From positions 7,877 to 71,876 of the forward strand of contig CAWCBC010000026.1 of assembly GCA_963793705.1 (NCBI GenBank): a stretch of 64,000 bases of DNA, given 5' to 3'. Below are positions 3,509 to 60,677 of the stretch, piece by piece (position 1 is the first letter of the stretch; each line of letters begins with the position of its first letter). Source of the DNA: an uncultured Acidobacteriota bacterium (lineage in GTDB: Bacteria > Acidobacteriota > Vicinamibacteria > Vicinamibacterales > UBA2999). Under the pieces are notes generated by a model, which was not told the DNA's origin, did not search any database, and worked only from the letters and a program-made list of their open reading frames with translations. Made by a program: the position numbers and the translations under genes.

Positions 3509-3552
3509 GCCCGGTGAGAAGGCATGTACCGCGCCAAGCCTGAGCCCTAGCC

Positions 3553-3597
3553 TAACCACGAAGGCACGAAGAGATCCCCTTCGTGATCTTCGTGGTT
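3553..3597. repeat. CACGAAG tandem-unit palindrome, copy P1
   Basis: taaccacgaag-gcacgaag ... cttcgtg-atcttcgtggtt. Confidence 0.9.
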
Positions 3598-4647: not shown

Positions 4648-4661
4648 GGCCTCTCCTAGGA

Positions 4662-4712
4662 AACCACGAAGTCCACGAAGGAATCTTCGAATCCTTCGCG
4701 TGCTTCGTGGTT
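4662..4712. repeat. CACGAAG palindrome, copy P2
   Basis: aaccacgaag-tccacgaag ... cttcgcg-tgcttcgtggtt. Confidence 0.9.
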
Positions 4713-4813
4713 CAAGATTCTCCTCCAGTTTTCAACGGGATTGACGATGGTCGAACATTGCCCTCGAGGTAGGCATGTCGGGGGCCAACTCGCTACACTG
4801 TCTGCGCCCCCGC

Positions 4814-8607: not shown

Positions 8608-8619
8608 GGACCGACGATC

Positions 8620-10139
8620 ACGTCACGCGCGTTCAGCGCTGGCTCGTGCGGCGGCAGCCATCTGCGCTGGTGGCGCGGCACCTTGTCAGGTCCGCGGGTG
8701 CCGGCGCCGCGGCGGACTCTCCGCTGCTCGAGGCAGTCAGGCGCGGCGACGAGAGCCGCCGTGCGATCGCTGGCGCGCCGCGCCACGGTGAACGTCGCCG
8801 AGCGCCGACGGCACGACGCCCCTGCACGTCGCCGCCCGGTCCGACCAGGTCGCCATCCTCGAAGCTGCTGATCGGGGCCGGCGCGCAGGTGAACGCCGCT
8901 GACCGCTACGGGATCACGCCGCTGGCCCTCGCGGCGATGAACGGATCGGCCCCGGCCATCGCCGCGCTGCTCGACGCCGGCGCCGACGGGAAGGCGCGCG
9001 TCGGCGATGGCGAGACCGTGCTGATGGCTGCCGCCAGGACCGGGCGAACCGACGCGGTCCGCCTGCTGCTCGATCATGGGGCCGACCCCAACGCGCGCGA
9101 GCCGTGGCAGGGCGAAACGGCGCTGATGTGGGCGGCCGGCGAGAACCACGGCGAGGTGGTGCGGCTGTTGGCGGCCCGGAAAGCCGATCTGAACGCCCGG
9201 TCGGTCGTGCCGGAATTCCCGAAGGTCAAAGTCGATCTGGCGACGATGGTCACGACCGCGCTGCCGCGCGGCGGCCTGACGGCGCTGATGTACGCGGCGC
9301 GGCAAGGTGCGGCCGACGGCGCGCGGGCACTCGCCGACGCCGGTGCGCCGCTCGACGCGCAGGATCCCGACGGCACCACGGCGCTCGTCATCGCCATCAT
9401 CAACGCGCACTACGAAGCGGCCGCGGTGCTCATCGACAAGGGCGCCAACCTCGATCTCGCGGACTCGGCCGGGATGACGCCGCTCTACGCCGCCGTGGAC
9501 ATGGAGCACCAGGAGCCGCTGATCAATCGCCCGCTGCGCGAAGCCGTCCGGCGCCATGCGGGCCCGCGACGTCGTCTCGCGGCTGCTCGCTCGCGGCGCC
9601 AACGCCAACGCGGTGCTGCAAGTCGCCGCTGCTGATGCGGCAGCACAGCGACGGCGATCCGACCTTCGGCGCGGGCGCGACGCCGTTGATGCGGGCGGCC
9701 AAGGTCGCCGACGTCGCGATCATGCGCGACCTGCTCACGCACGGAGCTGACCCGCGCCTGCGGCTCCGCAACGGCAACACGGCGCTGCACATCATCGCGG
9801 CGCGTGGCGGGAGAAACGCCGCGCCTGAGGCCACGGCCATCGAGGCCGCCGACGCTGCTGCTCGACAAGGGCGCCGACATCCAGGCCGCCACCGAGAGCC
9901 GGGCAGACTGCCCTGCATGCCGCCGTGGGCCGCGGCGACCGCCTCGTCAGGTTCCTCGTCGAGCGCGGCGCACAGCTGGACGCCAAGGATTCGGCCGGCC
10001 GCACGGCGCTCGATGTCGCGCTCGGCGTGCCAGGCGCGGCTGGTGGACGCGGTCGCGGCGGTCAGGCTCCGCCGCCCGGGACCGGTGAACGCAGACGACC
10101 GCTGCGCTGCTGAAGGAACTCGCTGGAGAACGAATGATG
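8620..10139 (+). CDS. Ankyrin repeat protein (several frameshifts; start approximate)
   Basis: Repeated GxTPL/GxTAL..AA motifs (GITPLALAA, GETALMWAA, GLTALMYAA, GATPLMRAA). Confidence 0.85.
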
Positions 10140-10143
10140 AACT

Positions 10144-10919
10144 ATGCGCAAGACTCGCAGATTCCCGTGGCGATCAGCGATCCTCACCGCGTCGCTGCCG
10201 GCAGCCGCGCAATGGAAGAACCTGCCGATGGACGGCGTGCCGATGCGCGACGGCAAGCCCGACCTGACCGCGCCGGCGCCGAAGACGCCGGCGGGCAGGG
10301 TCGATCTGTCGGGCATCTACATGCCCAACTACAAGTACTTCCAGAATCTCGCCGCCGATCTCGGCCTCGACAACGTGCCGATGACGCCGGAAGCCAGAAA
10401 GATTCACGCGGCGCGGGCCACGGGACTGCTCGGCTACGAGGAGCCCGACGCGCACTGCCTCCCGCAGGGAGTGCCCAAGATCAACATGGCGCCGGTGCCA
10501 TTCCGGATCGTGCAGACCGAGAAGCTCGTCGTGCTGGTCTACGAGGCGTTCAACCTGTGGCGGCAGGTGTTTCTTGACCAGCGCGAATGGGCTGCCGATC
10601 TGAACCCGTCCTGGATGGGCTATTCGAAGGGACGCTGGGAAGGCGACGAGTTAGTCGTGGAGACGCGCGGGCTGAACGGCAAGCAGTGGCTCGATCACGG
10701 CGGACTTCCGGCCAGCGACAAGCTGACGGTGATCGAACGGTTCCGTCGTCCCCGCTTCGGCCAGCTCGAGATTCAGATCACGATCGACGACCCGACGTAT
10801 TACACCAAGCCGTGGACGGCGAACACGTGCTGCGCCTGGTGCCGGACACCGAGCTGTTCGAGTTCATCTGCAACGAGAACGAGAAGTCCACGAAGCACAT
10901 GGGGCCGAATATTAAGTAG
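10144..10919 (+). CDS. Secreted hypothetical protein (related to the C-terminal domain of the DUF6152 protein)
   Basis: DLSGIY, DAHCLPQGVP, WMGYSKGRWEGDELVVET, DPTYYTKPW, frameshifted FEFICNEN. Confidence 0.75.
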
Positions 10920-10944
10920 GGCGCCCCTTCAAGGGGTGCCCTAC
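10916..10944. repeat. GTAG-type REP palindrome
   Basis: gtagggcgcccc-ttcaa-ggggtgccctac between convergent genes. Confidence 0.85.
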
Positions 10945-10957
10945 TCGATTGGAAGTT

Positions 10958-11407
10958 CTAGAGCACCCCTGGCTTGAAGGTGTACGGTGTGGTCTTGCCG
11001 TCACCGTCCCGATACAGCTTGTGGCACGCGCCGCACGTGGCGCCCTGGAACTCCTTGGCCGCTGCCTGCGCCGCCATCTGATCGGGCGCGGGTGCAGCGA
11101 GCATCTTGTCCAGCGCGTCGAGCTTGGCCAGACCGTCCTTGACGATGGCGACTGCATCGTCCTTCTTCTTGGACGCCCAGAACCCCTGCAGCGCCATGAA
11201 GTTCTCCCGCAGCGTGGCGACCTGCGTTCTCGCGTCTGCGAATGCGCCGGATCCGATGGCTTTGAACATCGGGCCGGCAGCCGAGCCATTTGATTTCATG
11301 ACCGCCGCGTGCTCCTCGGGTGTCGTCACCGGCTTTGTCTGAGCGCCGACGACGACTCCGAGCGCCACGATCATCAACGAAGTAACCCACACGAACAATC
11401 GCTGCAT
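10958..11407 (-). CDS. Cytochrome c (class II/c'-like) with C-terminal CxxCH
   Basis: Signal peptide, helical Ala/Lys-rich body, CGACHKLYR near C-terminus. Confidence 0.8.
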   Translation of the reverse strand: MQRLFVWVTSLMIVALGVVVGAQTKPVTTPEEHAAVMKSNGSAAGPMFKAIGSGAFADARTQVATLRENFMALQGFWASKKKDDAVAIVKDGLAKLDALDKMLAAPAPDQMAAQAAAKEFQGATCGACHKLYRDGDGKTTPYTFKPGVL

Positions 11408-11471
11408 ACCCCCTCCTTCGAACGTCACCAGAACGCGCGAATGTACCCGGGCCGGCGTGAAGCAATGCGAA

Positions 11472-12798
11472 CTACGGAACGGCGGCGGACAGCGCCCCGT
11501 CGAGGATGCGAATGGCTGTGTCGGCTTGCTCCTTGGTCAGCACCAGCGGCGGACAGAAGCGGATGGCATTCCGTCCGGCGCCCAGCACGAGCAGACCGCG
11601 GCGGAAGCACTCCCGGACGACGAGATCGCGTTCCGTGGTCGCGCGCTCCTTGCTCTGGCGGTCGCGCACGAGCTCGACGCCGATCATTAACCCCCGGCCG
11701 CGCACGTCGCCGATCAATTGGTGCTTGCCCATGAGGTTCTTGATGCCGGCGAGGAGGTGCGCGCCGACGTCCGCGGCGTTCTGCATGAGCTGCTCGCGTA
11801 TCAACTTGATCGTCGCCAGCGACGCCGCGCACGACAGCGGATTGCCGCCGAACGTGCTCGCATGCGTCCCGGGCGGCCAGGTCATGACGTGCGACCGGGC
11901 GATGACGACGCCGAGCGGAAGCCCGGAGGCGATGCCCTTGGCGGTCGCGACGATGTCCGGCTGGACGCCGGTGTGCTCGATCGCAAACCACTTTCCCGTG
12001 CGCCCCATCCCGGACTGCACTTCATCGACGATCAGCATCATCCCGTAGCGGGTCGCGAGCTCACGCAGCTTCTGGTGGAACACGTCCGGAGGCACGATGT
12101 AGCCGCCCTCGCCCTGGATCGGCTCGACGACGATGGCGGCGATTTCGTCGGGCGAGACGACATGCACGAGCGTCTGCTCCTCGACGAAGCGCAGACATTC
12201 CGCCGCGCAGCTGTCCGGCGTCGCGTTCACCGGACACCGGTAGCAGTTGGCGTAGGGCACGTGAAACACGCCCGGCATGAGCGGCGAGAACCCTTTTCGC
12301 TGCGCCGGCTTGCTGGCGGTCAGCGAGAGCGATCCCATCGTCCGGCCGTGAAAGGCGCCGAAGAACGCCAGCAGGTTCGGCCGCCGCATGTAATACCGCG
12401 CCAGCTTGATCGCCGCCTCGATGGCCTCGGTGCCGGAATTGGCGAAGAACGTCCGGTGCGGAGCCGGCATCGGCGCGATCTTCGACAACTCCTCGGCGAG
12501 CCGTACCTGCAGCTCGTAGTAGAAGTCGGTGCCGGACATGTGGAGGAACTTGCCCGCCTGCTCGACGACGGCCGCCACGACGTCGGGGTGCGAGTGGCCG
12601 GTGGCGGTCACGGCGATGCCCGCCGTGCAATCCAGGAAGACGTTGCCATCGACGTCTTCGACAAACGCGCCTTCGCCCCGGGCGATGACCAGCGGGTACT
12701 CGCGCGTATACGAGGGTGAGACCACGTCGGTATCGCGCGAGATGATCGCCTGAGCCTTCGGACCCGGGAAGTGATGTCTTCAGTAGCGGACCGATCAT
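11472..12798 (-). CDS. Class III PLP aminotransferase (acetylornithine/4-aminobutyrate type)
   Basis: NSGTEAIE, FHGRT, EPIQGEGG, DEVQSGMGRTG, TAKG, STFGGNP; N-terminus MIGPLL frameshifted. Confidence 0.92.
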
Positions 12799-14223
12799 CG
12801 CTTCTTCCACCGTGTGCCAGACGGATTGTCTTCGAGCAGAATGCCCCGTTCGGCGAGGTCGTTGCGAATCTTGATCGGCCGCGGCGAAGTCGCGCCGCAG
12901 CCGTGCCGCCTTGCGGTCGGCGATCAGCTGCTCGATCTCCTCCACCGGCACCGGCGTCTCTGCGTCCTCCGCCCGACGCAGGCTGATCACCCCGAGCACC
13001 CGGTCGAACTGATCGAATGCGTCGCGGACGACAGCCGCATCCGCGGCGCTGACCTGCCTGGCGTCGATGGCGGCGTTGACGTCGCGAATCAGATCGAAAA
13101 TCGCGGCGAGACCGGCGGCGGTATTGAGGTCGTCCTCGAGCGCGGCCTTGAATGATTCTCGTGCCGCCGCGACCAGCTGCTCGATCGCTGCGGACCGTGG
13201 CGGCTGTCGTCCGCTGGCGGCACATCGTCCAGCCGAGCGAGAAAGTCCACGATCCGCCGCAGCGATTCCTCCGCCTGCTCCAGCCCCACCCAGGTGAAGT
13301 TCAGCTGCTTGCGGTAGTGCGACGACAACAGCAGATACCGCAGCGACGACGCGCGCTGGTCGCGGGCGAGCACGTCGGTAAGGTTGTAGATGTTCCCGAG
13401 CGACTTCGACATCTTCTCGTTCTCGACGAAGAGATGCTCGACGTGAAACCAGAAGCGCGAGAACGTCTGCGTCGTCGCCCCCTCGGCCTGCGCGATCTCG
13501 TTCTCGTGATGCGGAAAGATCAGATCGACGCCGCCGGCGTGAATGTCGATCGGCGGCCCATCGAGCAGGCGCAGCGCCATCGCCGAACACTCGATGTGCC
13601 AGCCGGGACGGCCTGGACCGACGCCCACATCCCAGGTCGGCTCCCCGTCCTTGGACGCCTTCCACAGCACGAAGTCGCGGGCATCGTCTTTGGAGTACTC
13701 GTCGACGTCGACACGCGCGCCGGCCTGCAGCCCATCGTGGTCGAGACGGGCCAGCCGCCCGTAGGTCGCGAGCGACGCAATCTTGAAGTAGACCGACCCG
13801 TCGCGCCGGTAGGTGTGGCCGTTCCGTTCGAGCGCCAGGATCATCTCGCCCATCGCGCGGAGGTTCTGTTCTTCGGTCGCGCGGGGCATCTCCTCGGCCT
13901 GCTCGATCCCGAGTTGCGCCGCATCGTCACGAAACTTGTCGATCCACTGCTCGGTGTAGTCGCGCAACGGCATTCCCGCCTTCTGCGCGCCGGCGATCGT
14001 CTTGTCGTCAACGTCGGTGTAGTTGACGACGCCCTTCACCTCGTAGCCGCACAGGTGCTTCAAGCGTCCGCCGCAGCACGTCGACGCAGATGAACGTGCG
14101 GAAATTGCCGATGTGCCCGCGCGCGTAGACGGTCAGGCCGCAGGTGTACATCCGCACGAGATTGTCGCGGACCGGCGCAAAGGGCTCTTCCTGCCTTGTC
14201 AGCGTGTTGTACAGCCGGAGCAT
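12795..14223 (-). CDS. cysS: Cysteine--tRNA ligase (frameshifted in assembly)
   Basis: [45 protein letters not shown]. Confidence 0.97.
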
Positions 14224-14225
14224 CG

Positions 14226-14495
14226 CTAGGCGGGGTCCATCGTCAGCGTTCGACCGCCGACGATCGACCTGGATAGGCGGGCCGAGCTCGAGCGGCGACG
14301 GCGATCTCGCCAGTGCCACGCGTGCCGTTCGTGGATTCACGGAGGAGCGCGGCCGCCTGCTCGGCGAAGTCGCGGGCACGTCCTTCATCACCGCCGGCCT
14401 GACGGACGGCTTGCACGATCAGGTCATGGAGCGCCACGACGTGGCGGGCCTCGGCGCGGGAATGACAGGTTCAGCAGGAATCCCACGTCGCTCAC
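14226..14495 (-). CDS. Small hypothetical protein (boundaries uncertain)
   Basis: Coding-like stretch filling the ribF-cysS gap (core ORF 14243-14437). Confidence 0.35.
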
Positions 14496-14496
14496 A

Positions 14497-15433
14497 CTAC
14501 ACCGACAACCGGCTGAACAGGCGCTCGGCGCGCCGTTGATCGGCCTCGATCTGCGCTTTCAACGCGTCCACATCGTCGAAGCGGCGCTCGTCGCGAAGGC
14601 GAAGCACGAAGCCAAGCCGTACTGTGCGCCCGTACAGGTCGCCGGAATAGCCCAGCAGGTGCGTCTCAATCGTGGTTTCGGTCTCGCCAAACGTCGGCCG
14701 GATGCCGATGTTGGTCAGCCCCGCGCGCACGATCCCGTCGATCGTCATCGTCGTCGCGTAGACACCGTGCGGCGGCAGCAGCTCGTTTTCTGTCGTCATG
14801 TTCGCCGTGGGAAATCCGATTTCGCGACCGCGGTGGCGTCCCTCCACGATCGTCCCGTCGATGTAGTACGGGTGGCCGAGCAGCGCACCCGCCTCGTCCA
14901 GCCGACCTTCGGCCACCAGCCGCCGCACGCGCGTGCTGCTGACGACGAAGTCCTTATAACGCACCGGATCGATTTTGTCGGCGCGAAATCCGAAGCGTTG
15001 TCCCAGCGTGCGCAGGCTGGTGAAATTCCCGCTCCGGTCGTGGCCGAACAGGAAATTCGCGCCGACCCACACTTCCGAGACCCGCAGCCATTCGACGAGG
15101 ACCGTTCGCACGAACGTCTCCGGGTCCCACTGCGAGAGCTCCCGCGTGAACCGCACCACGGCCACGCACTGAATCCCCGCGCTGATGCAGCGCCTCGAGG
15201 CGCTGCGTCTTGGTCATGAGCAGCGGGGGTGCCTTGTCAGGCCGGACGATACGCGGGGGGTGCGGGTCGAAGGTCATCGCCATCGCCGCGCCGCCGTGTT
15301 CGGCGGCGCCCCGTTTCACGCGATCGAGGATCTTCTGATGTCCACGGTGCAGGCCGTCGAAGTTGCCAAGGGCCAGGACCGGGTGGACGAGCCACGATGG
15401 CCGGGCGTCGTCGGGGAAATGAATGGTCTGCAT
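14497..15433 (-). CDS. ribF: Bifunctional riboflavin kinase/FAD synthetase
   Basis: LGNFDGLHRGH, TFDPHP, VSSTRVR, GREIGFPTAN, GIRPTF, ETHL. Confidence 0.97.
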
Positions 15434-16230
15434 TCACTCCACGTCAACGGGCACGTCGAGCACGAGCCCATCATATGCCAGTTCAACGCCCGCGGGCAGG
15501 CGCGCGCTGGTCGCCGCGTGACCGAGGTCGTGGGACATGTGCGTCAGGTAGGCGCGCCGCGGCTTGATCCGGGCGATGACGTCCAGCGCTTCGGCGACGG
15601 TGAAATGCGTGGTGTGCGGTTTGTCGCGCAGCGCGTCGATGACCAGCGTCTCAACGCCATCGACGAGACGCCAGGCCTCGTCGTCCAGACGGTTGCAGTC
15701 GGTGAGGTAGGCGAACGTGCCGAAGCGGAAGCCGAGGATCGGCGCATCGCCGTGCCACAGCGGCACGGGTACGACCCGCACGCTTTCCGACGGCGAACGG
15801 ACCGTCGATGTCGTGCGCGATCGATCCGCGGAATGCCGCCGCCCATCCGCTTCACGCCGTCGAAGGCGTAGTGAAACGTGCGGCGGATGTCGTCCCACGT
15901 CGCCGGCGCCGCATAGCAGGCGACCGGGCCGCCCTGGATCCAGTTGAAGCGCCGGATATCGTCCAGCCCGAGGATGTGATCGGCGTGGCTGTGCGTGAAG
16001 AGGATCGCATCGATGCGCTCGATGCCGGCGGTGAGCGCCTGTTGCCGGAAGTCCGGCGTAGTGTCGATGAGGATCGAGGCGTGACCGGGCACATTGAGGT
16101 GGATCGACGGGCGCAGACGCGTGTCTCGCGGATCGGACGAGCGGCACACGTCGCAGGCGCAGCCGATCATGGGCACGCCGGACGAGGTCCCGGTACCGAG
16201 GAACGTGACGCGGCCGGAAACTCGGGTCAC
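15434..16230 (-). CDS. MBL-fold metallo-hydrolase (PhnP-like)
   Basis: FLGTGTSSGVP, CxCxVC, THSHADH, YLTD, THMSH. Confidence 0.92.
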
Positions 16231-16271
16231 CCTTCGACTCCGCTGGCTTCGCTGATGTCGCTCAGGGTGAC
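16226..16271. repeat. REP-like palindrome (GTCACCC...GGGTGAC type)
   Basis: gtcacccttcgactccgct...cgctcagggtgac; related copy inside mazG. Confidence 0.7.
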
Positions 16272-16289
16272 GCCGTGGATCGCGAGGCG

Positions 16290-16607
16290 TCAAGGAATGA
16301 TGATGCGCGAGGGCTCCGGAGCCGATCCCTGCTTGCTCACTTCGATGTAGCGGAGGCGCAGCTCGTAGAGGAGCTGCTCGAGCAGCTGGCGCTCTTCCGC
16401 GGTCAGGTTGCCGCGGGTCTTCTCCTCGATGAGCGCGAGGATGTCGATCATCTGCTGCGCCGCCGGCAGGTTTGCGGGAATCGTCTGGCCCGAGACCGGA
16501 TCCGGCACGTCCCCGAAATGGACCGCTGCCGTGTGGGCGAGCGACAGGACGAAGCCGAGGAATGTGACGGCCGACTCTTCCCGGTCCGGCATCTGATCGT
16601 CTGACAT
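16290..16607 (-). CDS. DUF1844 domain protein
   Basis: FLGFVLSLA, GDVPDP, IDILALIEEKTRGNL..EE. Confidence 0.9.
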   Translation of the reverse strand: MSDDQMPDREESAVTFLGFVLSLAHTAAVHFGDVPDPVSGQTIPANLPAAQQMIDILALIEEKTRGNLTAEERQLLEQLLYELRLRYIEVSKQGSAPEPSRIIIP

Positions 16608-20555: not shown

Positions 20556-20676
20556 CGGAAGCTGGACTAGCTCCTCATGGCGTCGGCATTGTGTCCTACG
20601 ACCGAACGAAGAACAACTCCACGCAGGGCTGGATCCACTGTGCGAGTAGAATCGGCCCACTTGAAGGAGGCGACAG

Positions 20677-22843
20677 ATGAGGAACGTAATGCATCTGCGA
20701 GTCGCGGCCGTTCTTACGGCCACCGTGGTGGTTGCCGCATGGGGACTGACGGGCGCGGGCCAGGCGCCGGCGCGACGCGGTGGCGGTGGACGCCGACGAC
20801 ATCGGCGGCGTCGTGACCGGCCCGAAGGGTCCTGAAGCCGGCGTGTGGGTCATCGCCGAAACAACCGACCTGCCGACACGCCTCATCAAGAGCGTCGTCA
20901 CCGACGATCAAGGGCGGTACCTGCTTCCCGATCTGCCGAAGGCGAGCTACGTCGTGTGGGTTCGCGGCTATGGGCTGGTCGACTCCCCTAAGGTCAAGGC
21001 CGCACCCGGTCAGCAGCTGTCCTTGACCGCGGTGGCCGCACCCGACGCGAAGGCAGCGGCCCACTACTACCCCGCTCAGTACTGGCTGGCCATGCTGCAG
21101 GTGCCGCCGACCACGGATTTCCCCGGCACAGGTCCAACGGGCAACGGCATCTCGCCGAACATGCGCAGCCAGGGCGAATGGATCCGCAACATCGTCAACA
21201 CCGACGGCTGCACCGGCTGCCATCAGATGGGGAACAAGGCCACGCGCGAGATCCCGGCAAGCCTCGGCACGTTTGCCTCGTCGAGCGCGGCCTGGGAGCG
21301 CCGCGTGCAGTCCGGCCAGGCAGGCGCCGGGATGCTCGCGCGATTCACCCAGGTCGGCCGCGACCGCGCGCTGGCGATGTGGGGCGACTGGACCGACCGC
21401 ATTGCCAAAGGCGAATTGCCGGCCACTGCGCCGCCGCGTCCCCAAGGCCGAGAGCGCAACGTCGTCATCACGATGTGGGACTGGACGGATCCGAAGGCGT
21501 ACCTGCACGACGAGATCGCCTCCGACAAGCGCAACCCGACGGTGAACGCGAACGGGCCGATCTATGGCGCGCTCGAAGAGGCTGCGGACTACATGCCGGC
21601 CGTCGATCCGGTGCGCCATACGGCAACGCGGATCCCGCTGAAGGTGCGCGATCCGCAGACGCCGCGGCCCGGGCGCGCCGGCGCAGCCCTCGCCGTACTG
21701 GGCTGACGAAGCGATCTGGACGAGCCAGACGCAGCGCGCACAGCTTTGCCATGGACAGCCAGGCGCGCGTGTGGATTGCGGCGCGCATCCGTCCGAATCA
21801 GACGGCCGCGTTCTGCCGCCAGGGTTCCGACCATCCATCGGCCAAGGCGTTTCCGATCAACCAGAGCGGGCGCCAGATGCAGATGTACGACCCGAAGACG
21901 AAAGAGGTCGTCACCATCGACACCTGCTTCGGCACGCATCACCTGAACTTCGATAGCAAGGACATCCTCTGGTTCACCGGCGGCGGTCCCGTCGAAGGCT
22001 GGTTCAACACACGCATTTACCTCGAGACGAAGGACGAGAAGCTGGCGCAGGGCTGGACGCCGTTCATCCTCGATACAAACGGAAACGGCAGACGTGACGA
22101 GTACGTCGAGCCGGATCAGCCGCTCGATCCGGCGAAGGACAAACGGGTGAACGCGCCGTTCTACGGCGTCGAGCCGGCCCCCGACGGCTCGGTCTGGGGA
22201 TCGGTGCTCGGCGTGCCCGGAATGCTCGTGCGACTCACGCTGGGCTCGAATCCTCCGGCGACCGCGCTATCGGAGGTGTACGAGGTGCCGTGGAAGAATC
22301 CAGCCGCGAGAGTGGAGGGATATGCCCCGCGCGGGATGGACGTCGACAGCAACGGTGTCGTGTGGACGGTTCTGTCGAGCGGGCATTACGCCAGCTTCGA
22401 TCGCCGCAAGTGCAAGGGACCGCTGAATGGTCCCAAGGCAACGGGTCAGCACTGCCCGGAGGGCTGGGCGCTTTCTGCCTTCCCCGGCCCCAATTACAAG
22501 GGCGCGACCGAGTCAGGCAGCGCCGAGAGCGCGTACTACAACTTCATCGATCGCTTCGACATGCTGGGGATCGGCCGCAACGTACCGCTCGCCACGGGCA
22601 ACGAATCGGAATCGCTCCTCGCGCTGGTCGACGGCAAGTTCCTGACGTTCCGCGTGCCGTACCCGATGGGCTTCTACGCGAAAGGCATGGACGGCCGCAT
22701 CGACGATGCGAAGGCTGGCTGGAAGGGCAAGGGCATCTGGACGACGTTTGCGACACGCGCGCCCTTCCACATTGAGGGCGGCAAGGGAACGACCAGCAAG
22801 GTCGTGAAGTTCCAGGTACAGGCCGGATCCGCTGGCGAAGTGA
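20677..22843 (+). CDS. Secreted carboxypeptidase-regulatory-like domain plus monoheme and beta-propeller (Vgb-like) protein (frameshifted)
   Basis: AAGGAGG RBS; GVWVIAET, TDDQGRY, CTGCH, TCFGTHH, RVPYPMGFY. Confidence 0.75.
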
Positions 22844-23714: not shown

Positions 23715-23820
23715 AACCACGAAGGCACACGAAGGTCACGAAGAGAAACATTGATCTAAAGGTCTTTCTTCGCGCTCTTCGTGCTCTTCGAGGTCCACCG
23801 ACTTCGTGTGCTTCGTGGTT
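23715..23820. repeat. CACGAAG palindrome, copy P3
   Basis: aaccacgaag-gcacacgaag-gtcacgaag ... cttcgcg-ctcttcgtg ... cttcgtggtt. Confidence 0.9.
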
Positions 23821-23837: not shown

Positions 23838-24942
23838 ATGCCGCGCATGTCATACGCTCGAGGCGTCCTTCTCACCGCGCTGGCCGCGCTGACGTTCATC
23901 ACACTGCTCATCACGTCGCCGTCGCTCGGTGCACAGTCGGTGCACAGGCTGGCGCACGGGGCGGCGCACAGGCGGGAGCACAGGCCCCACCGGCACAGCC
24001 CACGCGCACCGTGCAGGACGGCGTCTTCAGCGACGCGCAGGCTACGCGCGGTCAGGCGCTCTACGCGCAGCGCTGCGCCGGCTGCCATGGCCCTGCGCTG
24101 GCGGGCGCGTCAGCGCCGGCGCTGACCGGCGATCCGTTCACGAACAAGTTCCGGATGGAGCCGCTCTCGGCGCTCTTCATCCAGATTCGCTACGCGATGC
24201 CGCCAGTGCCAGTGGCTCCAACGCCGGCGGCTGCAGCACCGCGGGCCCGGCGCCGGCCGGGGGGGGTGACGTCGCAAGTGCCGCCTGCCAGCCCCAGCTG
24301 ACGAACGACCAGGCTGCGGATCTGGTTGCGCACATTCTCAAGAGCAACGGCTTCCCTGCCGGCAAAACCGACTTCGCGTCGGCCGATGCGGTCAACAGCC
24401 AGATCGCGTGGCCCGCCGGTCGCGGCGTCGGGGCAGGCAGCGCGCCGGCGTCATCCTGGTATGCGCCCACGGGCAATCTCGCCCAGTTGATGCGCGGCGT
24501 CTTCTTCCACAACTCGAATCTGATCTTCTCAATCCAGGAAATGGAAGCGAAAGACCTGCCGCCGAAGCCGCCGGACTCACGACCAGACGGGCTGACGACG
24601 TTCGATTGGGGTCTGATGATTTACACGGGCTGGAGGGCGGTCGAACAGTCCGCCACCGCGCTCGCCGATGCCTCGTCTCTGATGATGCTGCCGGGGCTTC
24701 GCTGCGAAAACGGGCGGGCCGCTCCGGTCACCGAGCCGGACTGGATCAGGTTCACCGATCGGATGGTCTCGGTGGCCAGGCGGGCGTATCGGCTGGCGCA
24801 GACCAAGAACAAGGAAGCCCTCTCGGAATACACCCTGGATCTTTCCAATGCCTGCAACGCGTGCCATCTGACGTATCGCGACGTCGGCGGCCGCGGCCGC
24901 GGCGGTGCAGGGAACACCGCCGGACGCTGCATGCATCGGTGA
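23838..24942 (+). CDS. Diheme cytochrome c (class I N-domain plus c'-like C-domain), copy A (frameshifted)
   Basis: DGVFSDAQATRG, CAGCHG, distal Met in YAMP, CNACH. Confidence 0.85.
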
Positions 24943-24970: not shown

Positions 24971-25093
24971 TAACCGCGAAGACCACGAAGGACGAACCAG
25001 TCAACGGCAAGGACGCGAAGATCCTTTGTAAAAGGAATTCTTCTTCGTGTTCTTCGCTGTGCTTCGGTGCCGGCTTCGTGTTCTTCGTGGTTA
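24971..25093. repeat. CACGAAG palindrome, copy P4
   Basis: taaccgcgaag-accacgaag ... cttcgtg-ttcttcgtggtta. Confidence 0.9.
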
Positions 25094-25107
25094 AGCGTCG
25101 TGCGACA

Positions 25108-26094
25108 ATGCCGCGCATGTATGCGATCCGTCGTCATCGCGGTGTTGGCCGCAGCCGCAGTCGTCTTCCTCGTCTCCACATCGATCTCGATCGAGGCGCA
25201 GGCCGCCAACGAACCGTACAAGACGGCGTCTACAGCGACGCGCAAGCGACTCGCGGCCAGGCGCTCTACGGGCAGCGCTGCGCCGGCTGCCACGGCCCGG
25301 CGTTGGCGGGCGCCCAGGCGCCGCCGCTTGCGGGCAGCGCGTTCACCTTCAAGTGGCGCAAGGAACCGCTGTCGGCCCTCTTCATCAAGATCCGGTACAC
25401 GATGCCGCCCAACCCGGCACCGGATGCGACTCCGCGGCTGACGCCCGAACAGGGCGCCGATCTCGTCGCGCACGTCCTGAAAACCAATGGCTTCCCCGCC
25501 GGCAAGACCGACTTCGCCGCGTCGGATGCGACCACCAGCCGCATCGGCTGGCCCCCCGCACCTGCGTCAGGGGAAGAACCGCCCGTCGTCGCGGCCAGGT
25601 ATCCGCCAACGGGCACGCTCAACCAGTTGATGCGCGGCGTGTTCTTCCCGAACTCGAATCTGCTCTTCACGGTGCAGACGCGCGACCCGGCGGCACCGGT
25701 CCCGCCACCAGACCCGGCGGCGAAGGGCGCCGGGTTCTCGGTGTTCGAATGGGGTCAGGGGATTTACACCGGCTGGCCGGTCATCGAAAACGCCGCCGCG
25801 GCCCTCGCCGATGCATCGCCGTGGATGCTCTCACCGGGATTGCGTTGCGAGAACGGCCGACTCGCTCCGGTCACCGAGCCCGACTGGATCAGGTTTACGG
25901 AGCAGATGGTCTCGGTGGCCAAACGGGGCTACCGCCTGGCGCAAACGAAGAATCAGGAGGCGGTCTCGGAATGGACCGGCGATCTGTCCGACGCCTGCGC
26001 CGCGTGCCACGGGACGTATCGCGATGTCGGCGGCCGCGGGCGCGGAGCGAACCCGCTCGGCGGTAACAACTCCGCGCGCTGCACGCACCGGTGA
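25108..26094 (+). CDS. Diheme cytochrome c, copy B (tandem paralog)
   Basis: CAGCHG, YTMP, CAACH; shares PGLRCENGR.APVTEPDWIRF with copy A. Confidence 0.85.
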   Translation: MPRMYAIRRHRGVGRSRSRLPRLHIDLDRGAGRQRTVQDGVYSDAQATRGQALYGQRCAGCHGPALAGAQAPPLAGSAFTFKWRKEPLSALFIKIRYTMPPNPAPDATPRLTPEQGADLVAHVLKTNGFPAGKTDFAASDATTSRIGWPPAPASGEEPPVVAARYPPTGTLNQLMRGVFFPNSNLLFTVQTRDPAAPVPPPDPAAKGAGFSVFEWGQGIYTGWPVIENAAAALADASPWMLSPGLRCENGRLAPVTEPDWIRFTEQMVSVAKRGYRLAQTKNQEAVSEWTGDLSDACAACHGTYRDVGGRGRGANPLGGNNSARCTHR

Positions 26095-26125: not shown

Positions 26126-26652
26126 TAACCACGAAGTGCACGAAGATCGCGAAGCCCGCGAAGAGATTCGTTGTTAGTGGGATAGGACGATCCGCTGCAG
26201 TCCATCTTTCAGAAGTCGCACTCGAAAGTTGATCAGCAATCCACCTCTGAGGCCCGATCGTTCGCAGGTATGAGATCACCTGGGCGCGGTGGATCTCGTC
26301 AAGCTCGGTCACCGCTTTCAGCTCGACGACGATGAGCCCTTCGACGATCAGATCGACTCGTTGCCCGGGAATCGGGATACCGCGATAGTTGACGTCAATC
26401 GCGCGTTCGCGCTCGTAGGCCAAGTTCGCGGTTCTCGAGTTCGATGCACATGGCCTTTCGATAGATCGACTCGAGGAATCCCGGGCCCGAGCGCCCGATG
26501 AACGGCAATTGCGCACCCGATCGTCTGATGCATCACCCATTCATCTCGAGGTGACAAGGGAGTCGGGCGCACACCACGCATACGCGTGAACCGAAACGGG
26601 ATCTCTCGCGGTCCTTCGTGCCCTTCGCTGCTCTTCGTGTTCTTCGTGGTTA
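26126..26652. mobile_element. Putative autonomous CACGAAG-palindrome element (P5) carrying a GxxExxY gene
   Basis: Left arm 26126-26167 and right arm 26601-26652 are inverted, with perfect 11-bp termini TAACCACGAAG, and enclose only the GxxExxY ORF; mobility is inferred. Confidence 0.55.
26174..26581 (-). CDS. GxxExxY protein (PD-(D/E)XK nuclease-like; TIGR04256/PDDEXK_3 family), frameshifted in assembly
   Basis: IGCAIAVHRALGP-G-F-L-E-S-I-Y after removing one G in a G run; RVDLIVEGLIVVELKA; AQVISYLR; GLLINF. Confidence 0.92.
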
Positions 26653-29119
26653 TCTTTTTTCATCGGTGAACGTCCTCACGACTACATTCCTGCAGTCCGA
26701 TTCCAGCGTGATCTCCCCGTCCCGATCGGTGCGGTAGACCCGCGCACCAATCGATTCGAGGCGCTCGAGTACCTCGGGCGCCGGGTGTCCGAACGTATTG
26801 CCGCGACCGGCGCTGACGAGCGCGATCTGCGGCCGCCAGCTCTCGAGGAGCGCCACCGATGACGACGTGCGGCTGCCGTGATGACCGATTTTGAGGATCC
26901 GGGTGCGCGCGTGGGTCAGCTGCGGGGCGATCGCACGTTCCACGTCCCCGCTGATATCCCCGGTCAGCAGCAGCGCCACGTCACCGCAGGTCACTTCCAG
27001 CACGACCGAGTCGTCGTTGCGCACGCGCGGCCGCTCCCAGTCCGGCTCCGGCGGGTGAAGCACGCGGATCCGGGCACGCCCCCATTGAAACGACTCGCCG
27101 GCGCGACGGAGATCCACTCCGACGCCAGCCGAGACGGCTCGCTCGCGTAGTCGACGAGACGGTTCGTGTCGCGGAACGACCACGCCCTCCCACAGGCGGC
27201 GCGGACGGAAGGTGTCGAGCAGCACCAAGGCACCGCCGATGTGATCGGGATCGCCATGCGTCAGCAGCAAGGCATCCAGGCCGCTGACGCTCCGCGCCCA
27301 CAAGGCCGGTGCAACGACGCGTGCGCCGATGTCGAAGCTGCCGCTGCCGAACGGCGCGCCGCCGGCATCGACCTGGAGCCGCGACGTCCCTGACTCCAGC
27401 AGCATCGCTTCCCCCTGTCCGACATCGAACAGCGTCAGCCGGATGCCAGGGACCATGGGCGGTTGGCCGTGCGGATACGCACCGATGACCAGCAGCATCG
27501 CGACGGCAAGGACGGGGAGTCACGGCGAGGCGCAGGCGCAAACGCGACGCGAACAGCAGCCCGAGCAGCGAGCCGTAATAGACAACAAGCAGCGGGATAC
27601 CTGGCGGTGGCACGCGCCAGGACAACGCGGGCGCCGCATCGACAAACCGAGCGCTCTCCACGATGCCGGAGGCGGACACGGCCGCCAGCCATCCCGCCGG
27701 TCCGGCGACGATCGGCCAGGCATCGAACGCGGCGACGACAAGTCCACCGACCTGCGCCACGGCCATCAGCGGCACCGCCACGAGGTTCAGCAGCGGCCCG
27801 GCCAGCGTCACGCGTGAGAACGACGCCGCGGACACCGGCATCAGCGCAATCTCGACGGCGACCGAGGCCGCCGATCGAGGCGGCAATCCAGATGAAGGGA
27901 TGGTATCCGGCTGATCCGGCGTCGATACGGCGGTCGCAGCCGGACCATCAGCGTCCGCATCCAGCGCGCGCTCTCGAGCAGGGCCGCCGTCGCGCCAAAC
28001 GTGAGAAGGAATCCCGCGCTCCGCACATCGAGCGGCGCCACGCCCGCCATCACCGCCCGCAGCCAGCGTCGTTGCCTGCCATGGCGGCGTCCGGTGATCG
28101 AACAGCCTCGCCGCCAGATACACGACCGCCATCAACGTCGCCCGCCAGACCGACGGTCCGGTCGTCGCGATCTGCGCATAGACCAGGAGCACGCCGATGG
28201 TGATCACGGCGCGTACGCGGCCATGAACGCCGACCAGCGCGAGCAGCGCGAAGGCGAGTCCCGCGAGAACCGCGATGTTGCCGCCCGAAATCGCGATGAC
28301 GTGGTACGTCCCCGCACGCTGGAGTCGTTCGGACACGTCATCCGACAAGCCGGTCCTGTCGCCGATCAACACGGCGGTAACGATCGCCGCCGCCGTCTGG
28401 TCGTGCGGCGCGACCCACCTGCGGACGACGTGGCGGACGCGCGCGCGCACACCGGCGGCCCACTCCTGAAATGGCGAGCCCTTCGAGACGACGTCGACGA
28501 GCAGGCCGCTCTTGACGGATGCGAACAGCGCCGTGCCGCTGAGTGCCAGTTGACGCTCGAAGTCCGGAACACCATCGTCGAGATATCTCGCCGGGCGCCT
28601 GAAGGTGGCGCGCGTCTCGATCACTCGCCCGGCGCGCCACTCATCCGCTCGTGTCGCGGCCGCCTCGCCACTGACGGTCAACGCAACACCGCCTGCCACA
28701 CCGTATCGACGCCCGTCGATGTCGACGGCTGCCACGTTCACGCGGAGCGAGACGTAGTCCTCGCGGAGGGCCGCGTCCTCGAGCAGCTCCGCGCGAACGG
28801 GGATCGGCTCGTGGTCGTTCTCGGGACCAAGGCTCTCGATCTGAAAGCCGCCGACCCGAGCATCGAGAACGTCGCGCAGTGAGGGATGCAGGGCCTCTTC
28901 GCGGGCATCGGCGGCCAGAACCGCGGCCGCGAGGCTAAAGCCGGCACATGTGGCCAGCAACGCCATCCAGGACATGCGACGCCACCAGGCCACGGTCGCC
29001 GCGGCACAGAGGACCGGCAGTGCCGCCACAGCGAGCCAACCCGGGACGTCGATGGACGTTCCGGCAACGGCGCCGACGAGGACGGAGAGTGCTGGACACA
29101 GCGCCGGGGGCACGCCCAT
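26650..29119 (-). CDS. comEC: DNA internalization competence protein ComEC/Rec2 (frameshifted)
   Basis: GTYHVIAISGGN, SVWRA, FDVGQG, THGDPDHIGG, NDDSVV, HHGS, GNTFGHP. Confidence 0.93.
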
Positions 29120-32020: not shown

Positions 32021-32211
32021 GGTTATGGTTCCTCCAAGGACTCCCAGGCTTCTCCAAGGCAGATGCCACTGCTGAACTCGGGCAATGAGGCCAGAAAAAG
32101 GCCCATTCACAGCGATACATTGGCCGCGAGTGCACAGATCCGGCACCCCAGGCACATGTTCGAAACTGAGGCGAGAAGTGCAAAAACTTCCCGCCTCAGC
32201 ATGTGGCAGAT

Positions 32212-32254
32212 TTCTTCTTCGTGGTCTTCGACTCTCTTCGTGCCTTCGTGCTTA
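32212..32254. repeat. Solo arm of CACGAAG palindrome (P6)
   Basis: cttcgtggt-cttcgact-ctcttcgtg-ccttcgtgctta; overlaps the receptor stop codon; no partner arm seen. Confidence 0.75.
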
Positions 32255-37002: not shown

Positions 37003-40264
<3,262 letters not shown>

Positions 40265-40280
40265 CAGGCGTTGCTGGCGT

Positions 40281-40375
40281 TAACCACGAAGGACACGAAG
40301 GATCGAAGATCACGAAGAATGTTTTTCATCAAGATGAACTTCGTGTCCTTCCTGCGCTTCGTGCTCTTCGTGGTT
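40281..40375. repeat. CACGAAG palindrome, copy P7 (between carA and carB)
   Basis: taaccacgaag-gacacgaag-gatcgaag-atcacgaag ... cttcgtg-ctcttcgtggtt. Confidence 0.9.
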
Positions 40376-40380
40376 CAAAG

Positions 40381-41522
40381 TCACCGTTTCTCCATTGACT
40401 CGATGAACTGCCTGAACAGGTAGTCCGCGTCGTGCGGGCCGGGTGATGCCTCGGGATGGTACTGCACCGAGAAGATCGGCTTCGTCAGATGCCGGAATCC
40501 TTCGACCGTGTTGTCATTCAGGTTCATGTGCGTGACGGTCACGTCGGACGGCAGCGACTCCGCTTTCACCGCGAAGCCGTGATTCTGCGAGGTGATCTCG
40601 ACCTTCCCGGACTGCAGATCCTTGACCGGATGATTCGCGCCGCGGTGCCCGAACTTCAGTTTGAAGGTCTCGCCGCCGACGGCGAGCCCGAGGATCTGGT
40701 GGCCCAGGCAGATCCCGAACATCGGCACGTCCGTCGTGCGTCAGCTCGCGCACGTTGTCGATCGCGTACGGCAGCGCCGCGGGATCGCCGGGACCGTTGC
40801 TCAGGAAGATGCCGTCGGGCTCGATCGTCGTCAGCTCCGACGCCGGCGCCGACGCTGGAAACACGTGCACGTCGCAGCCATACGCATCGAGCCGGCGCAG
40901 GATGTTGAATTTCACGCCGAAGTCGTAGGCCGCCACGCGAAGCCGCCGCGTGGCCCGGGCTTCGGTTGGAATCCCGAACATTTCGTGGTCCGCGTCGCCG
41001 ACGCGCCCGGCGAACTGGCGCCATTCGAACTGCCGTGTCGCACGTCACGCCGCGCACAAGGTCCGCCCCTTCCATCTTCGGGATGGCGCGCGCCTTCTCG
41101 ATCAGCTCCGCCGGATCGACCTGCCCGGTGGCGATCACTCCGCGCATGACACCGGCGTTGCGCAGCCCGCGTGTCAGCGCCCGCGTATCGATGTCGGCGA
41201 TGGCGACGATGTGATGACGAATGAGGTAGTCGCGCAGGGTGCCGTCGGCGCGCCAGTTGCTCGCCAGCGGCGACGCTTCCCGCATGACGAAGCCGGCCAC
41301 GCGCGGCGCCTGCGACTCCGCGTCGCCCGCCGCCACGCCGTAGTTGCCAATCTGCGGCGCCGTCATCGTCACGATCTGGCCGGCGTAGGAGGGATCGGTC
41401 AGCACTTCCTGATAGCCGGTCATGCTCGTGTTGAACACGACTTCGCCCGACGTCTCGCCAGTGGCTCCGGCCGCGACGCCTTGATACCAGGTGCCATCTT
41501 CGAGCGCCAGGACAGCGTTCAT
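40381..41522 (-). CDS. carA: Carbamoyl-phosphate synthase small subunit (frameshifted)
   Basis: [38 protein letters not shown]. Confidence 0.97.
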
Positions 41523-58575: not shown

Positions 58576-58695
58576 TAACCACGAAGGACGCGAAGCCTCT
58601 ACATCCTGGTACAAGGTCACGAAGAAACAATTTCAAAGGAAATCGATCTTCGTGTTCTTGGGCCATGACTGCGACTCTTCGTGGTCTTCGTGGTT
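58576..58695. repeat. CACGAAG palindrome, copy P8
   Basis: taaccacgaag-gacgcgaag ... gtcacgaag ... cttcgtg ... cttcgtggt-cttcgtggtt. Confidence 0.9.
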
Positions 58696-60604: not shown

Positions 60605-60677
60605 TAACCACGAAGGCACGAAGGGGATCGAAGAACACGAAGTAAGATCTTCAGGACTCTTCGTGTCCTTCGTGGTT
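60605..60677. repeat. CACGAAG palindrome, copy P9
   Basis: taaccacgaag-gcacgaag-gggatcgaag-aacacgaag ... cttcgtg-tccttcgtggtt. Confidence 0.9.

What the first reader, a model, noticed from the sequence alone, without database searches (positions are those of the whole stretch)
26126..26652. GxxExxY nuclease gene sits inside one copy of a dispersed tandem-unit palindrome: candidate new autonomous/non-autonomous mobile element system
Seen: the left arm reads TAACCACGAAG-TGCACGAAG-ATCGCGAAG-CCCGCGAAG-AGAT (26126-26167). The reverse complement of the right arm reads TAACCACGAAG-AACACGAAG-AGCAGCGAAG-GGCACGAAG-GACCGCGAGAGAT (26601-26652). Together they enclose only a ~135-codon GxxExxY gene (GFLESIY; D..ELK). 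The same arms occur with short spacers and no gene at 7 other sites in the window. Known: GxxExxY proteins are PD-(D/E)XK-fold proteins of unassigned function, and REP/RAYT pairs set a precedent for a palindrome family plus a cognate enzyme (an HUH enzyme in that case). Inference: the GxxExxY protein recognises the tandem 9-bp units and spreads or excises these palindromes, and the empty copies are MITE-like derivatives. I am not aware of this being experimentally described.
Basis: partly seen in the sequence, partly recalled or inferred. Interest (0 to 1): 0.9.

Follow-up and report, generated by a model that had tools for sequence, protein, structure and literature searches.

The report
Small nuclease gene framed by heptamer arrays
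A small nuclease gene of unknown function sits between two mirror-image arrays of a 7-letter DNA word, the same layout surrounds this gene family in many bacterial phyla, and this gives the family its first testable role as the partner of a widespread class of repeat elements.

Summary
Window 26126-26652 holds a GxxExxY (PF13366/TIGR04256) gene on the minus strand between two inverted arms built from CACGAAG units. Seven gene-less copies of the same arms lie in the window.

One correction: in this assembly the gene needs three +1 frame changes. Ordinary genes in the window are also frameshifted, so decay cannot be claimed.

The pattern generalises:
- All 6 PF13366 loci of this genome have unit-built inverted arms.
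- 21 of 28 loci in relatives do.
- In other phyla, 52 of 75 loci carry at least 2 inward-facing C-R-C-N-R-A-G words on both flanks. Controls gave 1 of 131 shifted windows and 0 of 25 loci of another small-gene family.

The "recent mobile element" reading is only partly supported:
- The cassette is ancestral at this site (14 of 30 genus loci).
- The protein is under purifying selection.
- The cassette decays in place into gene-less palindromes.
- No target duplication or clean empty site was found.
- An unrelated family, PF05635, has the same layout with other units.

Best reading: a gene-plus-binding-array cassette whose nuclease recognises the heptamers. Spread is rare and its mechanism is unknown. 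My literature searches found no description of this.

The parts
26126..26167 (.). Left arm: terminal TAACC followed by four CGAAG-ending units at 9-bp spacing
26601..26652 (.). Right arm, the inverted counterpart. Its end overlaps the stop codon of the comEC C-terminal frame.
26174..26581 (-). GxxExxY (PF13366/TIGR04256) gene, about 134 codons, read through three frames in this assembly
26475..26485 (-). First +1 base relative to intact orthologues (G/C run)
26415..26426 (-). Second +1 base relative to intact orthologues
26249..26259 (-). Third +1 base relative to intact orthologues
26650..29119 (-). comEC, the upstream neighbour on the same strand. It is split by one frame change near 27513-27524 in this assembly.
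25078..26094 (+). Cytochrome c-type gene, the convergent neighbour
3554..3597 (.). Gene-less palindrome, same termini
4662..4712 (.). Gene-less palindrome, same termini
23715..23820 (.). Gene-less palindrome, orthologous copy in G028 with fewer units
24972..25092 (.). Gene-less palindrome (left terminus variant AACCGCGAAG), orthologous copy in G028
32211..32254 (.). Right-arm-only remnant
40282..40375 (.). Gene-less palindrome in the spacer I read as carA-carB. G008 holds a palindrome of a different unit family at the same site.
58577..58695 (.). Gene-less palindrome
60606..60677 (.). Gene-less palindrome

Best explanation
The segment is a complete 'GxxExxY cassette'. It consists of a roughly 134-codon minimal PD-(D/E)XK nuclease gene with a Cas4/RecB-like core, bounded by two inverted arms. 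Each arm is a head-to-tail array of a heptamer at 8-10 bp spacing that ends in AACC. The heptamer here is CACGAAG, a local form of the family-wide word C-R-C-N-R-A-G.

Shown:
- Gene plus arms is the unit that recurs around this gene family across bacterial phyla.
- The heptamer is specific to this family.
- The heptamer cores are kept while the spacers between them drift.
- At this locus the cassette is ancestral to the genus and the protein is under purifying selection.
- In some species the cassette has decayed in place to arms with gene remnants, then to bare palindromes.

Inferred:
- The arrays are double-stranded-DNA recognition or cleavage sites for the encoded nuclease, which probably acts as a dimer. 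They would play the role that the subterminal repeats of a transposon play for its transposase.
- The abundant short palindromes are gene-less derivatives that depend on the protein in trans.
- Spread to new sites is rare. It would occur through nuclease-made breaks repaired by the host: either excision and rejoining, or gene conversion using the arms as homology.
For: - Own genome: 6 of 6 PF13366 loci have inverted unit-built arms, in 2-3 unit families that match the protein clades. 5 of 6 reach an inverted-flank score of 40 or more, against 4 of 1000 random windows.
- Relatives: 21 of 28 scored loci reach 40 or more.
- Other phyla: 42 of 70 loci reach 36 or more, against 1 of 135 shifted controls.
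- The C[AG]CN[AG]AG word occurs at least twice, facing inward, on both flanks in 52 of 75 loci. Controls gave 1 of 131, and PF05635 loci 0 of 25.
- Closed isolate records show the same layout: Bacteroides finegoldii, and Sphingomonas parapaucimobilis between fabD and fabG.
- Between the two arms of 28 solos, cores agree 0.87 and spacers 0.54.
- The catalytic D..ExK residues and E22 are invariant in 17 sequences. The AF2 model has pLDDT 93, and its best fold matches are Cas4.
- 17 of the 20 best library hits are two-domain fusions of 240-389 aa, which points to a dimer.
- comEC locus: the gene is present in 14 of 30 genus loci, always with arms, and the unit is changed on both arms together in G040, G023 and G029. 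A decay series is seen in G026, G037, G035, G033, G032 and G011.
- Omega is about 0.14 with saturated synonymous sites.
- Terminus counts are 27.5 (median) with the clade-A gene against 3 without it.
- One site holds different unit families in two species.
Against: - PF05635 genes, which are non-nucleases, show the same architecture: 24 of 32 reach a score of 40 or more, with other units.
- A methylpurine glycosylase gene and a CarboxypepD_reg gene are framed by a third unit family. Unit-array framing therefore does not need a GxxExxY enzyme.
- There is no target duplication: 30 of 40 elements have none and 8 have 1 base.
- No clean empty site was found. Two window solos and the cassette itself are orthologous in G028.
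- G010 (34 termini, 92% complete) and G002 (66 termini, 74% complete) have no PF13366 found.
- Across phyla, the core type does not track the protein tree: 18 changes against 18.3 in shuffles.
- From general knowledge, no PD-(D/E)XK protein of this size is known to carry out strand transfer.
- Binding and cleavage are untested.
Confidence: 0.5

Rival explanations
1. Host-kept DNA-binding system, not a mobile element. The GxxExxY protein would be a resident factor, in repair, regulation or chromosome architecture, that acts on heptamer arrays scattered through intergenic DNA. Its own gene simply lies between two of them, for example for autoregulation.
For: - The cassette is ancestral and syntenic in 14 of 30 genus loci, and the protein has omega about 0.14.
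- Solos are orthologous between G000 and G028, with cores kept.
- There is no target duplication.
- The gene is rare on plasmids (6 of 72,556 records) and was not found in phages.
- Solos lie next to both 5' and 3' gene ends: 27 and 32 of 72 sides.
Against: - The gene is lost or decayed in 16 of 30 genus loci without obvious replacement.
- One genome carries several paralogous clades with different arm units.
- At least 11 gene-less copies of about 280 bp exist for a second arm family.
- The family is patchy across hosts: PF13366 was found in 11 of 21 relatives, and phylum labels change 43 times on a 76-row tree.
- Nested copies exist.
Confidence: 0.2
2. RNA-level element of the rRNA intervening-sequence type. 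The two arms would pair in the transcript to form a long interrupted stem that is processed or that insulates the small gene from neighbouring transcription. Solos would be REP-like RNA hairpins.
For: - Solos fold strongly: median RNA MFE z-score -8.2.
- Cassettes and solos sit inside operon spacers, such as fabD-fabG and the spacer I read as carA-carB.
- PF05635, a family first known from rRNA intervening sequences (Pfam's name for it; the history is recalled), shares the layout.
Against: - A stem needs no particular sequence, yet one heptamer class is kept across phyla for this family only.
- Spacers between cores are not kept complementary: 0.54 against 0.87 for cores.
- Transition mismatches between arms show no excess of G-U-compatible pairs in the sense RNA: 111 against 139 in 84 cassettes, p = 0.09.
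- No Rfam family matches.
Confidence: 0.15
3. Passive cargo. The unit-array palindromes would be moved by some other enzyme or host process, and small genes such as GxxExxY, PF05635 and others are merely trapped in them or inserted into their loops.
For: - Several cargo types are framed by unit arrays.
- Nested elements exist: a family-B derivative inside family-A arms at G000 C22:4648-4898 and C8:29035-30022.
- A RAYT gene exists in the genome.
Against: - The RAYT is flanked by its own, different REPs.
- The heptamer class is tied to the protein family across phyla, whatever the host: 52 of 75 against 0 of 25 for PF05635.
- Within one genome, arm families follow protein clades.
- Random genes are rarely framed: 4 of 1000.
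Confidence: 0.1

Closest known systems
REP elements with their RAYT (Y1/HUH) transposase
   Same: Dispersed intergenic palindromes, plus a low-copy gene for a nucleic-acid enzyme that is itself flanked by copies of the palindrome.
   Different: - The enzyme here is a PD-(D/E)XK fold, not HUH.
- The arms are arrays of 2-5 heptamers, not a single hairpin.
- This genome's RAYT (G000 C6:13849-14133) has its own, unrelated REPs.
Transposons with multiple subterminal binding repeats and their MITE derivatives (Mu, Tn7, CACTA-type; recalled)
   Same: Several copies of one short word in inverted orientation at both ends, a distinct tip (AACC), the enzyme gene inside, and short gene-less derivatives with the same ends.
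   Different: - No known transposase fold.
- No target-site duplication.
- No demonstrated insertion event.
- This copy has been fixed for the life of the genus.
23S rRNA intervening sequences carrying a PF05635 (four-helix-bundle) ORF (recalled)
   Same: A small ORF enclosed by inverted arms. PF05635 genes in this genus are framed by tandem-unit inverted arms.
   Different: - Not in rRNA.
- Different protein fold.
- GxxExxY arms keep one heptamer class, whereas PF05635 arms use many different units.
- No sign of RNA-level selection.
Cas4 / RecB-type nuclease domains and small PD-(D/E)XK homing endonucleases (the latter recalled)
   Same: Fold and catalytic D..ExK. The best fold matches are Cas4 4r5q and 4ic1, with query-normalised TM 0.53-0.56, and there is a weak sequence match to 4ic1.
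   Different: - Half the size.
- None of 431 Foldseek matches has E <= 0.001.
- Not linked to CRISPR; PADLOC gives only weak Cas4 hits.
- Not inside an intron or intein.

Membership tests
GxxExxY protein (TIGR04256 / Pfam PF13366 PDDEXK_3) | Profile match above the curated cut-off | tested here: met
   Window gene: PF13366 scores 56.4 bits for the middle frame piece and 21.9 bits for the next piece, against a cut-off of 22. Orthologue G008 scores TIGR04256 123 bits against a cut-off of 35.
GxxExxY protein (TIGR04256 / Pfam PF13366 PDDEXK_3) | One uninterrupted reading frame | tested here: not met
   Three +1 insertions relative to G028, G008 and G009. This may be assembly error: about 11 frame changes were counted in about 14 kb (a rough tally) of ordinary genes compared. 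Reads did not cover the gene.
PD-(D/E)XK nuclease superfamily | Conserved acidic and lysine catalytic residues (D ... E-x-K) on the core sheet | tested here: met
   D61, E71, K73 and E22 are invariant in 17 sequences. The window gene reads D..ELK.
PD-(D/E)XK nuclease superfamily | Fold similarity to solved members | tested here: inconclusive
   The model has pLDDT 93.4. Top Foldseek hits are Cas4, the R2 endonuclease domain, AdnAB and lambda exonuclease, but the best E-value is 1.6e-3 and TM 0.53.
REP/RAYT system | Cognate enzyme is a Y1 (HUH) transposase, PF01797 | tested here: not met
   The enclosed gene is PF13366. The only PF01797 match lies elsewhere, with different REPs.
Autonomous transposon with MITE derivatives | Gene-carrying and gene-less copies share terminal inverted repeats | tested here: met
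   Same AACC tip and four-unit arm layout in solos and in the G028/G009/G000 cassettes. At least 11 gene-less copies exist for the second arm family.
Autonomous transposon with MITE derivatives | Target-site duplication | tested here: not met
   30 of 40 elements have no flanking direct repeat, 8 have 1 base, 1 has 2 and 1 has 3.
Autonomous transposon with MITE derivatives | Presence/absence polymorphism with an empty site | tested here: inconclusive
   No clean empty site among 30 genus loci; G010 lacks any arm but is distant. One spacer holds different unit families in G000 and G008. No close strain was available.
rRNA intervening-sequence type element | Arms act as a paired RNA stem | tested here: inconclusive
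   Strong predicted folding but no wobble asymmetry. Processing cannot be tested here.

The most novel reading that the evidence does not exclude
GxxExxY proteins (about 36,000 clusters at 50% identity) would be the site-specific nucleases of a previously unrecognised, pan-bacterial class of gene cassettes. The ends of these cassettes are arrays of a 7-bp word, and their decay and rare spread would seed many REP-like 'tandem-unit' palindromes. PF05635 four-helix-bundle cassettes, including the ORFs of rRNA intervening sequences, would be a sister class that uses its own words. If so, one shared architecture would explain two large families of unknown function and a common kind of intergenic repeat.
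Probability: 0.3. Interest if true: 0.9.

Novelty: new variant of a known kind. Interest (0 to 1): 0.8.

Why it matters
PF13366/TIGR04256 is a very large family: 36,053 library representatives at E <= 0.001. It has no assigned function; a 2012 survey table lists it as 'Unknown' (PMC3424549, passage seen).

The family-specific heptamer arrays give a concrete candidate substrate for biochemistry. They also give an origin for a class of intergenic palindromes and link the family to the equally obscure PF05635 genes.

If the nuclease does mobilise or convert these arrays, it would be a new enzymatic route to repeat spread in bacteria.

As a practical point, the arms are often translated into false N- and C-terminal extensions of annotated proteins.

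Tried and rejected
- Reads: no public run held more than 0.11 of the sampled words. Laying X1, X2, X3 and X20 covered the arms and neighbouring genes but not the gene interior, so the three frame changes stay unverified and nothing can be said about expression.
- RNA pairing: the wobble-asymmetry test gave no support.
- Covariation of core type with the protein tree across phyla: not significant. Labelled rows gave 18 changes against a mean of 18.3. CAC against CGC gave 9 against 11.3, with 20 of 300 shuffles at or below the observed value. 31 of 74 rows were dropped from the labelled test as 'none/other', and the tree was the quick method on 115-residue proteins.
- Target duplication: none.
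- Extension of the palindrome into the flanks: 2 of 40 reach 8 of 12 matches, against 1.33 in shuffled pairings, so it was rejected.
- Terminator-like placement: not seen. 32 sides face 3' ends, 27 face 5' ends and 13 are non-coding, out of 72; 7 of 72 termini abut a stop codon.
- Rfam: no relevant match.
- PADLOC: weak Cas4 hits for 1 of 3 proteins.
- Phages: no match. Plasmids: 6 records.
- Solved structures by sequence: only 4ic1, at E = 0.1.
- Literature. 'GxxExxY' appears in 3 papers, 2 of them listed. I read the one passage in PMC8934634; PMC12085832 was seen only as a search listing. PF13366/PDDEXK_3/TIGR04256 appear in 2 papers; I read a table passage of PMC3424549, and PMC9756366 was seen only as a search listing. 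For the searches on four-helix-bundle/IVS protein terms, on STRR/heptameric repeats, and on PDDEXK plus repeats, I looked only at the search listings (titles and abstract starts) and saw nothing describing the architecture. Subscription journals and supplementary files were not seen and may bear on priority.
- Complex prediction and the protein atlas were not used.

Full report
**1. What is in the window**

The left arm, 26126-26167, is TAACC followed by four units ending in CGAAG. The right arm, 26601-26652, is its inverted counterpart. The repeat finder pairs the two outer 21-mers at 90% complementarity.

The tip word AACCACGAAG occurs 16 times in the window, against 0.05 expected. It defines seven complete gene-less palindromes of 44-121 bp, one right-arm remnant and one lone tip.

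Between the arms, on the minus strand, lies a GxxExxY gene (26581 to 26174, about 134 codons). As assembled it changes frame three times. Against the intact orthologues of G028, G008 and G009 it carries exactly three extra bases.

I do not read this as decay. Proteins of G028 and G008 laid on the window change frame in many ordinary genes: three times in 12798-14229, twice in 20665-22818, twice in 40384-41330, and once in comEC near 27513-27524. My tally is about 11 frame changes in about 14 kb; the base count is a rough estimate. The genome scores only 54.5% complete despite 29 contigs. Three changes in 0.4 kb is still denser than that rate. Public reads did not cover the gene, so the state of this copy is open.

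**2. The rest of the genome**

The genome (4.23 Mb, 65.9% GC) has 65 left and 88 right exact tips. Forty tip pairs lie closer than 1.2 kb, mostly 32-127 bp. The modal layout is: tip unit, NN-CACGAAG, GATCGAAG, NN-CACGAAG, an A/T-rich loop, then the mirror image.

PF13366 matches six loci. All six are framed by inverted unit-built arms:
- The window copy uses CACGAAG.
- Four copies of another protein clade use ACGGAGG-type units plus a shared internal hairpin module.
- One copy uses CACGGAG.

An inverted-flank alignment score of 40 or more is reached by 5 of 6 of these loci and by 4 of 1000 random windows.

The second arm family also has at least 11 gene-less copies of 240-290 bp. The single RAYT gene is flanked by its own, unrelated REPs.

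**3. Generality**

In 20 relatives, 21 of 28 scored PF13366 loci reach a score of 40 or more, again with periodic arms.

A scan of one genome per species returned 80 loci from about 20 phyla and one archaeon.
- Of 70 loci with enough flank, 42 reach 36 or more, against 1 of 135 windows shifted by 1.5 kb.
- The arms share one word class, C-R-C-N-R-A-G. CACAGAG is the commonest form, usually after an ACC tip.
- At least two inward-facing copies on both flanks occur in 52 of 75 loci, in 1 of 131 shifted controls and in 0 of 25 PF05635 loci.
- Closed records of cultured bacteria show the same layout: Bacteroides finegoldii between radA and an FAD protein, and Sphingomonas parapaucimobilis between fabD and fabG.
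- Predicted proteins in the large library sometimes begin with peptides that read like translated arrays.

**4. History of this locus**

The comEC C-terminal frame was found in 31 of 36 genus genomes, and 30 loci were fetched.

A GxxExxY gene lies directly downstream, on the same strand, in 14 of the 30. All 14 have arms that start at or next to the comEC stop. The unit is CACGAAG in most, CACGACG on both arms in G040, and CACGGAG/CACCAAG higher-order arrays on both arms in G023 and G029.

Among the other 16 loci:
- G026, G037 and G035 keep arms plus a 5' gene remnant.
- G033 and G032 keep arms plus internal or 3' remnants.
- G011 keeps a one-unit mini-palindrome.
- Six keep one arm only.
- G007 ends in a long array.
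- G010 has nothing, and two loci have other neighbours.

The 13 intact orthologues have saturated synonymous sites (pS 0.57-0.86). Omega has a median of 0.14 over the 35 of 78 pairs where it is computable.

Two window solos are orthologous in G028, with different unit numbers. The solo in the spacer I read as carA-carB is replaced in G008 by a palindrome of another unit family.

The cassette is therefore old, constrained and slowly eroding. Turnover does occur on the time scale of the genus.

**5. The protein**

Seventeen sequences keep E22, D61, E71 and K73. The AlphaFold model is confident, with pLDDT 93.4. Its nearest solved folds are Cas4 proteins, followed by the R2 endonuclease domain, AdnAB and lambda exonuclease; all matches are weak.

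The family has 36,053 representatives at E <= 0.001. Seventeen of the 20 best hits are two-domain fusions, which suggests a dimer as the working unit.

**6. DNA or RNA?**

Solos fold strongly as single strands (z = -8.2). However, cores agree between arms far better than spacers do, 0.87 against 0.54.

The 250 transition mismatches between arms of 84 cassettes show no bias toward G-U-compatible pairs in the sense transcript: 111 against 139.

The fact that one word class is kept only for this family argues for sequence recognition rather than pairing alone.

**7. What weakens the mobile-enzyme reading**

- PF05635 genes in the same genomes are framed by inverted unit arrays too (24 of 32 reach 40 or more), with many different units.
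- A third unit family frames a methylpurine glycosylase gene and a CarboxypepD_reg gene.
- There is no target duplication and no clean empty site.
- Within the genus, tip counts are higher with the clade-A gene: 12 genomes with a median of 27.5, against 24 genomes with a median of 3 (one-sided Mann-Whitney p = 2e-5; related genomes are not independent). But G002 (66) and G010 (34) have many tips and no PF13366 found.
- Across phyla, core type does not follow the protein tree.

**8. Verdict**

That the nuclease reads these arrays is the most economical inference. That it moves them is plausible but unshown. This particular copy is an old resident.

G009 is unpublished. It contributes rows to the counts above, but no claim depends on it alone.

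Noticed in passing
G000 C13:249338-249990, C25:26667-27276, C27:80374-81492, C23:23252-23551, C10:231384-231695; loci L065-L094: PF05635 (four-helix-bundle / rRNA-IVS protein family) genes are framed by inverted arrays of short units that differ from copy to copy (e.g. GGTGCGAG, CTGGGTCGC, AAGGCC, GGCAGC, AGGGATT). 24 of 32 reach a score of 40 or more.
   Followed up: partly
L177 (G000 C6:17329-18167) and L179 (G000 C9:246392-247578): Inverted arrays of a third unit (TCGTTCGAR) frame a methylpurine-DNA glycosylase gene (PF02245, E = 1e-57) and a CarboxypepD_reg-domain gene. The same unit also forms short palindromes.
   Followed up: partly
G000 C10:204579, C11:123482, C13:224506, C18:32741, C20:161567, C22:4653, C23:161102, C24:48814, C24:107780, C8:22190, C9:219836: At least 11 gene-less copies of 240-290 bp of the ACGGAGG-unit arm family. 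They keep the internal nested-hairpin module that follows the gene in full copies.
   Followed up: partly
G000 C22:4648-4898 and C8:29035-30022: Nested elements: an ACGGAGG-family derivative inside CACGAAG-family arms. The C8 copy also holds about 700 bp of other coding-like sequence that was not identified.
   Followed up: no
window 12798-14229, 14500-16575, 20665-22818, 24005-24939, 27513-27524, 40384-41330: Ordinary conserved genes change frame relative to G028/G008 proteins, so the assembly looks rich in single-base indels. 37085-40267 (3.2 kb) has none.
   Followed up: partly
G000 C6:13200-14400 (L008): A RAYT (PF01797) gene flanked by its own REPs (GTCCGCCT..AGGCGGAC type). A lone CACGAAG-family left arm lies just upstream of the REP cluster.
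   Followed up: partly
window 40282-40375 versus L175 about 10890-10975 (G008): The same spacer, which I read as carA-carB, holds palindromes of two different unit families in two species (CACGAAG against RAATGCA).
   Followed up: partly
L062 (G023), L058 (G029), L054 (G007), downstream of comEC: The arms are expanded into higher-order tandem arrays, about 33-bp super-units of three cores repeated 4-8 times. The G007 contig ends inside one.
   Followed up: no
window 3536-11486: About 8 kb present in the window but not in the syntenic G028 contig. Two solos (3554-3597, 4662-4712) lie at its left edge.
   Followed up: no
P0001-P0017 and others: Many library proteins of 240-295 aa are tandem fusions of two GxxExxY domains.
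   Followed up: no
window 23929-24942 and 25078-26094: Two paralogous cytochrome c-type genes in tandem, separated by a solo palindrome. G028 has the same arrangement.
   Followed up: no
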